The notes beneath the pieces are model-generated. The model searched no databases, was not told where the DNA came from, and worked only from the letters and a program-made list of their open reading frames with translations. Shown in pieces: positions 56,582-58,796 of a stretch of DNA of 64,000 nucleotides. Within the stretch, counting starts at the first letter, position 1, and every line of letters begins with the position of its first letter. Origin of the DNA: Escherichia coli (lineage in GTDB: Bacteria; Pseudomonadota; Gammaproteobacteria; Enterobacterales; Enterobacteriaceae); NCBI RefSeq assembly GCF_003334815.1, contig NZ_QOWO01000010.1; one strand, written 5' to 3'. The translations under genes were made by a program, and so were the position numbers.

Positions 56582-58796
56582 GTTATTCTCTGCATTCAGA
56601 AAAAATAAAATCTGGGATTTCAACGGCGGCATCCATCCACCGGAGATGAAAACCCAGTCCAACGGTACACCCCTGCGCCAGGTACCCCTGGCGCAGCGTT
56701 TTGTTATTCCACTGAAACAGCATATTGGCGCTGAAGGTGAGTTGTGCGTTAGCGTCGGCGATAAAGTATTGCGCGGCCAGCCGCTTACCCGTGGTCGCGG
56801 CAAAATGCTGCCTGTTCACGCGCCCACCTCGGGTACCGTTACGGCTATTGCGCCCCACTCTACGGCTCATCCTTCAGCTTTAGCTGAATTAAGCGTGATT
56901 ATTGATGCCGATGGTGAAGACTGCTGGATCCCGCGCGACGGCTGGGCCGATTATCGCACTCGCAGTCGCGAAGAGTTAATCGAGCGCATACATCAGTTTG
57001 GTGTTGCCGGGCTGGGCGGTGCAGGATTCCCGACAGGCGTTAAATTGCAGGGTGGCGGAGATAAGATTGAAACGTTGATTATCAACGCGGCTGAGTGCGA
57101 GCCGTACATTACCGCCGATGACCGTTTGATGCAGGATTGCGCGGCTCAGGTCGTAGAGGGTATTCGCATTCTTGCGCATATTCTGCAGCCACGCGAAATT
57201 CTTATCGGCATTGAAGATAACAAACCGCAGGCGATTTCCATGCTGCGCGCGGTGCTGGCGGACTCTAACGATATTTCTCTGCGGGTGATTCCAACCAAAT
57301 ATCCTTCTGGCGGTGCTAAACAATTAACCTACATTCTGACCGGGAAGCAGGTTCCACATGGCGGGCGTTCATCCGATATCGGCGTATTAATGCAAAACGT
57401 CGGCACTGCTTATGCAGTGAAACGTGCCGTTATTGATGGCGAGCCGATTACCGAGCGTGTTGTAACCCTGACTGGCGAAGCAATCGCTCGCCCGGGCAAC
57501 GTCTGGGCACGGCTGGGGACGCCAGTGCGTCATTTATTGAATGATGCCGGATTCTGCCCCTCTGCCGATCAAATGGTGATTATGGGTGGCCCGCTAATGG
57601 GCTTTACCTTGCCATGGCTGGATGTCCCGGTCGTAAAGATTACCAACTGTCTGTTGGCTCCCTCTGCCAATGAACTTGGCGAACCACAGGAAGAACAAAG
57701 CTGCATCCGGTGTAGCGCCTGTGCTGACGCCTGCCCTGCGGATCTTTTGCCGCAACAGTTGTACTGGTTCAGCAAAGGTCAGCAACACGATAAAGCTACC
57801 ACGCATAACATTGCTGATTGCATTGAATGTGGGGCTTGCGCGTGGGTTTGCCCGAGCAATATTCCCCTGGTGCAATATTTCCGTCAGGAAAAAGCTGAAA
57901 TTGCGGCTATTCGTCAGGAAGAAAAGCGCGCCGCAGAAGCCAAAGCGCGTTTCGAAGCGCGCCAGGCTCGTCTGGAGCGCGAAAAAGCGGCTCGCCTTGA
58001 ACGACATAAGAGCGCAGCCGTTCAACCTGCAGCCAAAGATAAAGATGCGATTGCTGCCGCTCTGGCGCGGGTGAAAGAGAAACAGGCCCAGGCTACACAG
58101 CCTATTGTGATTAAAGCGGGCGAACGCCCGGATAACAGTGCAATTATTGCAGCACGGGAAGCCCGTAAAGCGCAAGCCAGAGCGAAACAGGCAGAACTGC
58201 AGCAAACTAACGACGCAGCAACCGTTGCTGATCCACGTAAAACTGCCGTTGAAGCAGCTATCGCCCGCGCCAAAGCGCGCAAGCTGGAACAGCAACAGGC
58301 TAATGCGGAACCAGAACAACAGGTCGATCCGCGCAAAGCCGCCGTCGAAGCCGCTATTGCCCGTGCCAAAGCGCGCAAGCTGGAACAGCAACAGGCTAAT
58401 GCGGAACCAGAAGAACAGGTCGATCCGCGCAAAGCCGCCGTCGAAGCCGCTATTGCCCGTGCCAAAGCACGCAAGCTGGAACAGCAACAGGCTAATGCCG
58501 AGCCAGAACAACAGGTCGATCCGCGCAAAGCCGCCGTCGAAGCCGCTATTGCCCGAGCCAAAGCGCGCAAACGGGAACAGCAACCGGCTAATGCGGAGCC
58601 AGAAGAACAGGTTGATCCGCGCAAAGCTGCCGTCGAAGCGGCTATTGCACGCGCCAAAGCACGCAAGCTGGAACAGCAACAGGCTAATGCGGTACCAGAA
58701 GAACAGGTTGATCCGCGCAAAGCGGCAGTTGCCGCGGCTATTGCCCGCGCTCAGGCCAAAAAAGCCGCCCAGCAGAAGGTTGTAAACGAGGACTAA
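56574..58796 (+). CDS. rsxC: Rnf/Rsx complex subunit C (NADH-binding, Fe-S) with a C-terminal repeat region
   Basis: 740-aa ORF. N-terminal RnfC domain with two 4Fe-4S motifs ([12 protein letters not shown]; [12 protein letters not shown]), followed by a Lys/Ala/Glu-rich tail built from 32-aa tandem repeats. Confidence 0.95.
58230..58770 (+). repeat. Tandem repeat array (96-bp unit, 5 full copies plus a partial sixth) inside the rsxC coding sequence
   Basis: Repeating peptide [29 protein letters not shown](E/Q)QV; nucleotide units begin at 58230 and then every 96 bp (checked at 58710). Copies differ at a few positions. Confidence 0.85.

What the first reader, a model, noticed from the sequence alone, without database searches (positions are those of the whole stretch)
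58230..58770. 96-bp tandem repeat array encoding a 32-aa repeat tail in RsxC
The C-terminal third of rsxC consists of 5 full and 1 partial near-identical 96-bp units encoding [29 protein letters not shown](E/Q)QV. Repeats of this kind are prone to slippage or recombination, so copy number may vary between strains. Because the repeat lacks stop codons in several frames, it also generates long spurious ORFs on both strands. The function of this charged helical tail in the Rsx/Rnf complex is not obvious from sequence.
Basis: seen in the sequence. Interest (0 to 1): 0.4.

Follow-up and report, generated by a model that had tools for sequence, protein, structure and literature searches.

The report
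Known variable repeat in rsxC tail
The 96-bp tandem repeat at the end of E. coli rsxC is real and varies in copy number between strains, but it is already a published typing marker; the less ordinary point is that each unit carries an 18-residue helix conserved far more strictly than the enzyme's catalytic domains, with no known function.

Summary
Window 58230..58750 holds 5.4 in-frame copies of a 96-bp unit inside rsxC (56574..58796, 740 aa; E. coli K-12-like).

The array is already known. It is the MLVA typing locus ms11: both published primers match exactly, flanking it. Its 32-aa repeat polymorphism in E. coli was published in 2026, and the equivalent 40-aa RsxC repeat in Erwinia in 2023.

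In 59 systematically sampled complete E. coli genomes the array ranges from about 1.4 to 8.5 units. The K-12 length is the mode (35 of 59). All eight alleles read through stay in frame, so this is a length polymorphism, not an on/off switch.

Each unit has two parts:
- An 18-aa basic, alanine-rich head, [18 protein letters not shown].
- A fast-evolving acidic spacer rich in Pro and Gln.

Between seven enterobacterial species the head has dN/dS of about 0.002 (pN 0.0025, against 0.034-0.060 for the catalytic domains). Copies within one genome still differ at 14-39% of synonymous sites. That indicates selection on the peptide, not DNA homogenisation. The same head recurs in RnfC tails of Vibrio and several marine Gammaproteobacteria, and in no other protein family. 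AlphaFold2 models helices joined by disordered linkers.

Function remains unknown. A multivalent docking array on flexible tethers is my inference.

The parts
56574..58796 (+). rsxC coding sequence (740 aa plus stop), third gene of rsxA-B-C-D-G-E-nth
   Evidence: ORF. RefSeq annotation of 100%-identical records. Operon annotation. NCBIfam NF003454 RsxC E=2e-261 and TIGR01945 rnfC E=2e-179.
56574..57908 (+). Catalytic core, aa 1-445: RnfC_N, Complex1_51K (FMN/NADH), SLBB and the 2x[4Fe-4S] ferredoxin domain
   Evidence: Pfam hits at 14-115, 139-283, 296-344 and 373-430. Aligns to solved RnfC chains 8ahx_C, 7zc6_C and 9eri_C.
57867..58022 (+). Long Glu/Arg/Lys-rich helix, aa 432-483, leaving the Fe-S domain. 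It is the counterpart of the >50-residue C-terminal helix of A. vinelandii RnfC.
   Evidence: AF2 helix 432-483 with pLDDT about 90-96. 8ahx_C aligns up to query residue 498. The review says this helix contacts RnfB and RnfH and that its function is not understood.
58038..58085 (+). Old degenerate head-like motif, aa 489-504 ([16 protein letters not shown])
   Evidence: Sequence. Counterparts such as [14 protein letters not shown] occur in distant RnfC tails. AF2 helix 490-507.
58128..58205 (+). Pre-array basic helix, aa 519-544 ([26 protein letters not shown]). It is a degenerate relative of the unit and contains I525.
   Evidence: Alignments. AF2 helix 522-546. Natural alleles P0022 and P0098 have deletions joining this segment to a true unit. 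rsxC-I525F arose in evolved K-12.
58230..58325 (+). Unit 1 ([18 protein letters not shown] + [14 protein letters not shown]), the edge unit present in all eight E. coli alleles read
58326..58421 (+). Unit 2
58422..58517 (+). Unit 3
58518..58613 (+). Unit 4 (spacer variant [14 protein letters not shown])
   Evidence: The same variant occurs in ETEC1717.
58614..58709 (+). Unit 5 (spacer variant [14 protein letters not shown])
58710..58793 (+). Terminal divergent unit ([28 protein letters not shown]), conserved as its own type in every genus examined
   Evidence: dN/dS 0.033 between genera.
58788..58792 (+). GAGGA Shine-Dalgarno sequence for rsxD, embedded in the last rsxC codons (rsxD ATG at 58797)
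   Evidence: AACGAGGAnTAA|ATG is conserved at DNA level in seven species.
58079..58098 (+). Forward primer site of MLVA locus ms11
   Evidence: Single exact match. Primer taken from PMC8215070 Table 1.
58825..58844 (-). Reverse primer site of MLVA locus ms11 (766-bp amplicon in this window)
   Evidence: Single exact match. Primer taken from PMC8215070 Table 1.
57594..58901 (-). Spurious 435-aa antisense ORF produced by the stop-free repeat
   Evidence: The frame analysis shows selection acts on the rsxC frame.
58022..58720 (-). Spurious 232-aa antisense ORF
58138..58785 (+). Spurious 215-aa ORF in the +2 frame. Frameshifted rsxC alleles read through this frame.
   Evidence: P0130 carries this peptide.

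Best explanation
This is the published minisatellite ms11, a coding 96-bp tandem array in the 3' quarter of rsxC. rsxC encodes the NAD(P)H-side peripheral subunit of the membrane-bound Rsx/Rnf redox complex. Shown here: each unit encodes an 18-residue basic, alanine-rich head ([18 protein letters not shown], net charge +4), modelled as a helix, followed by a 14-residue acidic, proline-containing spacer (net -4), modelled as disordered. The tail is therefore a string of identical short helices on flexible tethers in the cytoplasm. It follows the long helix that in A. vinelandii RnfC contacts RnfB and RnfH. Also shown: internal units are gained and lost in register, the first and last units are kept, and the frame is preserved, so strains differ in how many heads they carry rather than in whether RsxC is made. 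Inferred mechanism of change: unequal recombination or replication slippage between neighbouring units, which share identical in-register runs of up to 55 bp. Shown: every head copy is under very strong purifying selection at the protein level, and the head is confined to RnfC/RsxC tails of Gammaproteobacteria. Inferred function: the heads are a multivalent, sequence-specific docking or tethering module for a conserved cytoplasmic partner. That partner could be a subunit such as RsxB or an RnfH-like protein, an electron carrier, or SoxR. The spacers would serve only as flexible tethers. Head number seems loosely constrained, so it drifts and marks clonal lineages.
For: Array and frame. Identity with ms11: the primers from PMC8215070 match uniquely at 58079 and 58844, and the paper lists a 96-bp unit with alleles 0 and 4.5-7. 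Published E. coli repeat polymorphism: PMC13185298 reports 32-aa units starting with DPRK, 4-7 copies, in 83 genomes. Its R7a protein WP_000915707.1 is the protein of my locus L001, which has 7 DPRK units. Copy-number range: (645-937 aa, up to 12 DPRK units). Alleles follow clones: all five ST131-type rows in the sample are +198 bp and all O157:H7 rows are +96 bp. Selection on heads: between seven species pS=0.61 and pN=0.0025, giving dN/dS about 0.002. Within genomes pS is 0.14-0.39 with dN about 0-0.01. In the same gene, pN is 0.060 for the core, 0.045 for the FMN domain and 0.034 for the Fe-S domain. Spacers have dN/dS 0.06-0.35 within genomes and differ in length and sequence between genera. 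Distribution: a tail-only search of 1.84 billion representatives gave 132 hits. All full-length hits with the motif are RnfC/RsxC. They come from Vibrio vulnificus, Pseudoalteromonas, Paraferrimonas, Alginatibacterium, Celerinatantimonas, Rheinheimera and Erwinia. 127 heads in 26 distant proteins give the consensus [18 protein letters not shown], with head-to-head distances of 26-150 aa. Structure: AF2 places a helix on each head (554-575, 586-607, 618-638, 651-666, 682-703, 714-739) and linkers of pLDDT <50 on the spacers. Context: the A. vinelandii RnfC C-terminal helix contacts RnfB and RnfH.
Against: There is no experimental evidence on the tail. Rnf complexes without any such heads work (Clostridium, Acetobacterium and A. 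vinelandii Rnf1; the solved chains end near the residue equivalent to 445-498), so the heads are not needed for core catalysis. Natural alleles with very few heads exist: O121:H19 has one unit plus the terminal unit, and E. amylovora is reported with 0-5 repeats. Valency is therefore not tightly required. AF2 confidence on the head helices is only about 55-80, and I could not inspect contacts. No similar sequence exists in a solved structure (best E=0.32), so the docking idea has no structural precedent. The between-genus dN/dS pools non-independent copy pairs. The qualitative result is robust but the exact value is not. The slippage or recombination mechanism is inferred from allele structures, not observed.
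Confidence: 0.6

Rival explanations
1. Neutral low-complexity expansion. The tail is a tolerated, functionless, disordered appendage. The repeats look alike only because they arose recently by duplication and are homogenised by gene conversion.
For: Copy number varies freely between lineages, from 1.4 to 8.5 units or more. Many Rnf complexes lack the tail. Spacers evolve fast. No Pfam family covers residues 446-740.
Against: Head copies within one genome differ at 14-39% of synonymous sites, and between genera at 61%, yet almost never at nonsynonymous sites. Gene conversion would erase the synonymous differences as well. The head is more than ten times better conserved than the catalytic domains. 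It persists in Vibrionales and several marine Gammaproteobacteria with unrelated spacers.
Confidence: 0.12
2. Electrostatic antenna or nucleic-acid binder. The basic heads act non-specifically through charge. They might concentrate acidic electron carriers such as flavodoxin or ferredoxin near RsxB/RsxC, or bind DNA so that the membrane complex can reach DNA-bound SoxR. No specific helix-to-protein interface would be involved.
For: Head net charge is +4 with Lys/Arg clustered at the C-terminal half, and the tail has a net charge of +16. Rsx is described as the system that re-reduces SoxR (PMC4759930). The operon ends with nth, which encodes a DNA enzyme.
Against: A purely electrostatic role would tolerate K/R swaps and changes at Ala, Val and Ile. 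Instead the uncharged positions are among the most invariant: A10 is 100%, V/I7 99% and A6 83% in 127 distant heads. Each +4 head is paired with a -4 spacer, so a unit is roughly neutral overall.
Confidence: 0.15
3. Membrane anchor. The heads are amphipathic helices that hold the peripheral RsxC subunit on the inner face of the membrane.
For: RsxC has no transmembrane segment and sits on a membrane complex. Basic residues could pair with anionic lipids.
Against: The hydrophobic moment of the head is low (0.15-0.22) and its mean hydrophobicity is negative. There are no aromatic or large hydrophobic residues apart from one Val and one Ile, and the basic residues are spread around the helix.
Confidence: 0.04
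4. Contingency (phase-variable) locus. Repeat slippage switches rsxC, or the downstream rsxD, on and off.
For: It is a tandem repeat in a coding region with strain-to-strain variation. It lies immediately upstream of the rsxD start, whose ribosome-binding site sits in the last rsxC codons.
Against: The unit is 96 bp, which is 32 codons. All eight natural alleles read through the array are in frame to the normal stop. The -1 and -97 bp spans in the sample come from frameshifts outside the array, upstream in rsxC and in rsxD. Alleles are stable within clones.
Confidence: 0.02

Closest known systems
VNTR locus ms11 of the Shigella/E. coli MLVA panel (Gorgé et al. 2008, as reproduced in PMC8215070)
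   Same: It is the same locus. Both primers match this window exactly and flank the array. The listed unit size is 96 bp, and alleles of about 4.5-7 units are reported.
   Different: The MLVA papers I could read treat it as an anonymous size marker and do not discuss the encoded protein. The original 2008 paper is not held in the library.
E. coli 'RSXC repeat polymorphism' typing scheme (Jothi et al., BMC Genomics 2026, PMC13185298)
   Same: Same gene and same 32-aa unit starting with DPRK, with the same variable end motifs (QQV, EQV, EPV, EQI, EKV). Copy number is 4-7, counting the terminal unit.
   Different: The paper covers typing only, in 83 genomes. It does not divide the unit into head and spacer, analyse selection, compare genera beyond citing Erwinia, or propose a function. 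Its correlation with virulence and resistance gene counts is likely confounded by clonal structure.
40-aa RsxC repeat of Erwinia amylovora and E. pyrifoliae (Ham & Park 2023, PMC10587187; Plant Dis 2024)
   Same: It starts at the same position (residue 553). The first 16 residues, [16 protein letters not shown], are identical, and copy number varies from 0 to 5.
   Different: The unit is 40 aa with a different spacer (KKAAQAAPAAADKAAPVQQPAAEQ). The authors suggest a solenoid or toroid fold, whereas AF2 here gives isolated helices with disordered linkers.
C-terminal long helix of Azotobacter vinelandii RnfC (PDB 8AHX; Zhang & Einsle 2024, as summarised in PMC12174285)
   Same: It aligns to residues up to 498 of this protein and corresponds to the confident AF2 helix 432-483. 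It is the only structurally characterised extension beyond the RnfC Fe-S domain.
   Different: That protein ends after this helix (496 aa) and has no repeated heads. The repeat array lies downstream of anything that has been resolved.
Small binding modules on Ala/Pro/Glu-rich flexible linkers in 2-oxoacid dehydrogenase E2 chains (my own knowledge; an analogy only)
   Same: Short folded or helical modules are separated by extended, mobile linkers rich in Ala, Pro and acidic residues. The Klebsiella spacers (AEQQAAPAEAPAAEPA) resemble such linkers.
   Different: There is no sequence relationship. E2 modules are lipoyl and peripheral-subunit-binding domains with known partners, whereas no partner is known here.

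Membership tests
RnfC/RsxC (TIGR01945, NF003454) | N-terminal RnfC barrel-sandwich domain plus a NuoF-like FMN/NADH domain plus an SLBB domain | tested here: met
   Pfam RnfC_N at 14-115 (1e-31), Complex1_51K at 139-283 (3e-48) and SLBB at 296-344 (7e-8).
RnfC/RsxC (TIGR01945, NF003454) | C-terminal ferredoxin domain with two [4Fe-4S] cysteine motifs | tested here: met
   Fer4_7 at 376-430. C377/C380/C383/C387 and C416/C419/C422/C426 are invariant in 31 sequences.
RnfC/RsxC (TIGR01945, NF003454) | Score above the curated family cut-off | tested here: met
   NF003454 scores 868 bits against a cut-off of 345. TIGR01945 scores 597 bits against a cut-off of 246.
RnfC/RsxC (TIGR01945, NF003454) | Position in an rnf/rsx ABCDGE operon | tested here: met
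   ORFs on either side. RefSeq annotation rsxA-B-C-D-G-E-nth in identical loci.
MLVA VNTR locus ms11 | Both published primers flank the array | tested here: met
   Unique exact matches at 58079..58098 (+) and 58825..58844 (-).
MLVA VNTR locus ms11 | 96-bp unit with copy-number polymorphism among isolates | tested here: met
   TRF period 96. Alleles from -4 to +3 units in 59 genomes.
Phase-variable contingency locus | Repeat changes shift the reading frame or alter promoter spacing, giving on/off alleles | tested here: not met
   The unit is 32 codons. All eight alleles read through the array are in frame. The out-of-frame spans are due to changes outside the array.
Amphipathic membrane-targeting helix | High hydrophobic moment with a distinct apolar face | tested here: not met
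   Hydrophobic moment 0.15-0.22 and mean hydrophobicity -0.38.
Coiled coil / helical solenoid (as suggested for Erwinia RsxC) | Helices packed against each other through regular hydrophobic positions | tested here: inconclusive
   An alanine stripe (A5, A9, A12, A16) exists. However, AF2 gives separate helices at moderate confidence with linkers of pLDDT <50. Inter-helix contacts could not be inspected, and no coiled-coil predictor was available.
Sequence-specific multivalent docking motif (short linear motif array) | Motif conserved while flanks diverge | tested here: met
   Head pN is 0.0025, against spacers that cannot be aligned between genera.
Sequence-specific multivalent docking motif (short linear motif array) | An identified binding partner | not testable with these tools
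   Only single-chain structure prediction was available, and no interaction data were found in the literature searched.

The most novel reading that the evidence does not exclude
The repeated head ([18 protein letters not shown] in Enterobacterales; [18 protein letters not shown] elsewhere) is an unrecognised, ancient docking helix specific to gammaproteobacterial RnfC/RsxC. It would recruit a conserved partner to the cytoplasmic face of the complex: the physiological electron donor or acceptor, SoxR, or an RnfB/RnfH-type subunit. The strain-specific number of heads would then tune how efficiently that partner is captured, so that a typing marker also acts as a quantitative modifier of redox-stress signalling.
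Probability: 0.3. Interest if true: 0.55.

Novelty: already known. Interest (0 to 1): 0.3.

Why it matters
As a repeat polymorphism it matters only practically. It is a stable, clone-tracking size marker already used in MLVA and in a 2026 typing scheme. It also causes annotation problems, including spurious ORFs, a short allele called a pseudogene, and frameshift read-through.

The more interesting point is biological. The physiological partners of the Rsx/Rnf complexes of Enterobacterales and Vibrio are poorly defined. In these organisms RnfC carries up to a dozen copies of a helix that is conserved more strictly than its FMN and Fe-S domains. Such a motif is a ready-made handle, as a peptide bait or a deletion series, for finding what these complexes interact with in the cytoplasm.

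Tried and rejected
- **Phase variation:** rejected. The unit is a multiple of three, and all eight alleles read through are in frame.
- **Membrane-binding amphipathic helix:** rejected because of the low hydrophobic moment.
- **Functional overlapping or antisense ORFs:** rejected. Variable sites concentrate at codon position 3 of the rsxC frame.
- **Homogenisation by gene conversion as the cause of head identity:** rejected because synonymous divergence between copies is substantial.
- **Structural or family relatives of the tail:** none found. Pfam has nothing on 446-740, NCBIfam matches only the RsxC model up to residue 570, the best PDB hit has E=0.32, and PHROGs gave no hit.
- **The motif outside RnfC:** the only non-RnfC hits (P0186, P0191, P0229) are unrelated low-complexity proteins.
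- **Original ms11 paper (PMC2268344):** not held in the library.
- **Literature on tail function:** searches found only typing papers, plus a review stating that the function of the A. vinelandii helix is not understood.
- **Out-of-frame spans in the sample (-1 and -97 bp):** checked. They are due to frameshifts upstream in rsxC and in rsxD, not in the array.
- **Not attempted:** fusion or complex predictions with RsxB or SoxR. Only single-chain prediction was available and the result would not have been reliable.
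Full report
**Observation.** Tandem Repeats Finder reports a single array at 58230..58750: period 96, 5.4 copies, 91% matches, no indels, score 818. Base identity at lag 96 across 58100..58800 is 0.74, against 0.29-0.35 at neighbouring lags. The five full units are 85-96% identical in DNA. They encode DPRK(T/A)[13 protein letters not shown] followed by (L/R)EQQ(Q/P)ANA(E/V)PE(E/Q)QV. A sixth, divergent unit ([28 protein letters not shown]) runs to the stop codon. The array is in frame in the 740-aa ORF 56574..58796. The stop-free repeat produces three long spurious ORFs: 435 aa and 232 aa on the minus strand, and 215 aa in the +2 frame. 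The consensus unit lacks stop codons in four of six frames. The only corrections are that the array makes up a quarter of the protein rather than a third, and that the last 'partial' unit is a complete, divergent head.

**What the gene is.** The window is 100% identical here to E. coli K-12 records, in which the ORF is annotated rsxC within rsxA-B-C-D-G-E-nth. Residues 13-445 form a standard RnfC: RnfC_N, Complex1_51K, SLBB and a two-cluster ferredoxin domain. NF003454 scores 868 bits and TIGR01945 scores 597 bits. No Pfam family covers residues 446-740. Solved RnfC chains end near the residue equivalent to 445. The exception is A. vinelandii RnfC (8ahx_C), which aligns up to residue 498. [quoted passage not shown]

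**The array is already known.** The primers of MLVA locus ms11 (96-bp unit; PMC8215070 Table 1, citing Gorgé et al. 2008) each match the window exactly once, at 58079..58098 (+) and 58825..58844 (-). They bracket the array and give a 766-bp amplicon. A 2026 BMC Genomics paper (PMC13185298) describes the 'RSXC repeat polymorphism' in 83 E. coli genomes: 32-aa units beginning with DPRK, variable end motifs, and 4-7 copies. Its R7a protein WP_000915707.1 is the protein of my O157:H7 locus L001, in which I count 7 DPRK units. The same group earlier described a 40-aa RsxC repeat with 0-5 copies in Erwinia amylovora (PMC10587187). All of these papers concern typing, and none addresses function.

**Variability, checked independently.** rsxC is 2223 bp here, 2319 bp in O157:H7 NE92, 2421 bp in ST131 ZH193 and 1935 bp in LD22-1. 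A query made only of the two unique flanks joined both flanks in 5405 of 5426 complete genomes. In the 59 usable rows of an evenly spaced sample, the distance between flanks differed from K-12 as follows:

| Difference from K-12 (units) | Genomes |
|---|---|
| -4 | 1 |
| -2 | 2 |
| -1 | 10 |
| 0 | 36 |
| +1 | 4 |
| +2 | 5 |
| +3 | 1 |

- **Small offsets.** Offsets of +3 or +6 bp are explained by an extra Gln codon, which gives 33-aa units.
- **Range in the protein database.** E. coli RsxC runs from 645 to 937 aa, with up to 12 DPRK units.
- **Frame and edge units.** All eight alleles I read through the array are in frame, and all keep the first unit (DPRKT...) and the terminal unit.
- **Out-of-frame spans.** Both are due to frameshifts outside the array.
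- **Stability within clones.** All five ST131-type rows are +198 bp and all O157:H7 rows are +96 bp. The published correlation with virulence and resistance gene counts is therefore probably clonal confounding.
- **Likely mechanism (my inference).** Neighbouring units share identical in-register runs of up to 55 bp, which could serve as substrate for slippage or unequal recombination. Two natural alleles (P0022, P0098) have deletions that join a degenerate pre-array segment to a true unit.
- **Possible change in the laboratory.** A laboratory-evolved ATCC25922 line acquired a non-frameshift deletion in rsxC.

**Anatomy of the unit.** Comparing RsxC from Escherichia, Salmonella, Citrobacter, Klebsiella, Raoultella and an unnamed enterobacterial lineage shows the same design everywhere. 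An invariant 18-residue head, [18 protein letters not shown], is followed by a genus-specific spacer of 10-22 residues rich in Glu, Pro, Gln, Ala and Thr. A distinct terminal unit ends the array. Erwinia fits the same pattern.

At codon level the heads are not merely homogenised DNA. Copies in one genome differ at 14-39% of synonymous sites, and copies in different genera at 61% (dS about 1.24). Nonsynonymous divergence is only 0.0025, which gives dN/dS of about 0.002. In the same gene and species set, pN values are:

| Region | pN |
|---|---|
| 18-aa head | 0.0025 |
| Fe-S domain | 0.034 |
| FMN domain | 0.045 |
| Core, aa 1-445 | 0.060 |
| Long helix | 0.083 |
| Pre-array segment | 0.26 |

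Spacers have dN/dS of 0.06-0.35 within genomes and cannot be aligned between genera. Of 26 variable columns among 18 E. coli units, 16 fall at codon position 3 of the rsxC frame. The pooled copy pairs are not independent, so the exact ratio should not be over-read, but the contrast with the catalytic domains is large.

**How far the motif reaches.** A search with the tail alone (residues 446-740) against 1.84 billion representatives at 50% identity returned only 132 proteins. Every full-length hit that carries the motif has the RnfC Fe-S signature, with the match starting near residue 445-455. The three hits without the RnfC Fe-S signature (P0186, P0191, P0229) are unrelated low-complexity proteins. 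Named members come from Vibrio vulnificus, Pseudoalteromonas, Paraferrimonas, Alginatibacterium, Celerinatantimonas, Rheinheimera and Erwinia. Lengths also vary inside their 90%-identity clusters. In 26 distant proteins I found 127 heads with the consensus [18 protein letters not shown]. At positions not fixed by my search pattern, A10 is 100%, V/I7 99%, A8 88% and K18 81%. Head-to-head distances range from 26 to 150 residues. The E. coli 32-aa unit is therefore one lineage's version of an old RnfC tail design.

**Physical character.** The head has net charge +4 and the E. coli spacer -4. The hydrophobic moment of the head is low (0.15-0.22), which argues against a membrane-binding amphipathic helix. 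Residues A5, A9, A12 and A16 form an all-alanine stripe. AlphaFold2, run with a 31-sequence alignment, models the core confidently and gives a long helix at 432-483 (pLDDT 90-96). It then places one helix over each head plus the first spacer residues, at pLDDT about 55-80. The linkers between them have pLDDT below 50 and sit on the Pro-containing spacers. No similar sequence exists in a solved structure (best E=0.32) or in PHROGs.

**Interpretation.**
- **Shown:** the locus is the known minisatellite ms11 in rsxC. It changes by whole units in frame. Each unit is a conserved helix plus a variable linker. The helix is under very strong purifying selection and is specific to gammaproteobacterial RnfC/RsxC.
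- **Inferred:** the heads form a multivalent, sequence-specific docking or tethering array on flexible linkers. The array projects from the region where the preceding helix meets RnfB and RnfH in the A. vinelandii structure.
- **Evidence against:** head-less Rnf complexes function. Natural alleles with one or zero internal units exist. There are no experimental data.
- **An ambiguous hint:** rsxC-I525F, in the pre-array helix, arose in evolved K-12 and behaved like a deletion ('null or neutral').
- **Rivals:** neutral junk is contradicted by dN/dS. Pure electrostatics is contradicted by the invariance of uncharged positions. A membrane anchor is contradicted by the hydrophobic moment. Phase variation is contradicted by unit length and allele frames.

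**Verdict.** The residual interest is the strictly conserved head of unknown function, which gives a concrete way to look for cytoplasmic partners of Rsx/Rnf in enteric and marine Gammaproteobacteria.

Noticed in passing
window 58785..58799: The last rsxC codons (AAC GAG GAC TAA) are conserved at DNA level in seven enterobacterial species. They contain GAGGA (58788..58792), the Shine-Dalgarno sequence for rsxD, whose ATG (58797) directly follows the rsxC stop. The C-terminal 'NE(D/E)' is therefore constrained in two ways.
   Followed up: yes
L010 (NZ_CP031910.1, E. coli O121:H19 FWSEC0006), locus 1..1265: The shortest natural allele seen has one unit plus the terminal unit. Its frame is intact from the ms11 primer site through the array to the normal stop, yet RefSeq annotates it as a pseudogene ('incomplete; missing C-terminus'). 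The part of the gene upstream of the primer site was not read, so this looks like an annotation artefact of a short VNTR allele rather than being proven as one.
   Followed up: partly
P0130 (736 aa) and L012 (NZ_CP027103.1, strain RM14723): These are frameshifted rsxC alleles. In P0130 the shift puts translation into the stop-free +2 frame, which reads through the whole array ([12 protein letters not shown]...). In RM14723 a frameshift upstream splits rsxC, and the in-frame tail is annotated as a separate 'hypothetical protein'. Whether these are real mutations or sequencing errors was not resolved.
   Followed up: partly
window 58038..58229 (aa 489-552): Upstream of the array there are two older, degenerate relatives of the head, [16 protein letters not shown] and [26 protein letters not shown]. 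Both are conserved into distant RnfC tails, and the second can recombine with true units in natural alleles (P0022, P0098).
   Followed up: partly
window 58146..58148 (codon I525 of rsxC): An experimentally evolved K-12 strain carried rsxC-I525F, which the authors found equivalent to a deletion ('null or neutral'; PMC4759930). I525 lies in the pre-array tail helix and is conserved in Enterobacterales. It may hint that the tail matters for Rsx function.
   Followed up: partly
NZ_CP026085.1 (hit H18, labelled strain DH5alpha): This record is 4.83 Mb and only 98.4% identical to the K-12 sequence across this locus, which is unexpected for a K-12 derivative. The strain label is probably wrong.
   Followed up: no
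E. fergusonii RsxC (P0007, P0020, P0062, P0060); Pseudoalteromonas and Erwinia sp. clusters: Copy-number variation of the equivalent array is visible in other species. E. fergusonii has 679, 726, 759 and 792 aa with 33-aa units. Pseudoalteromonas has 820-890 aa and Erwinia sp. 773-1013 aa within single 90%-identity clusters.
   Followed up: partly
PMC13185298 (literature): The reported correlation of RsxC repeat number with virulence and resistance gene counts was not corrected for phylogeny. In my sample, alleles are fixed within clones (ST131 +2 units, O157:H7 +1 unit), so the correlation is probably clonal confounding.
   Followed up: partly
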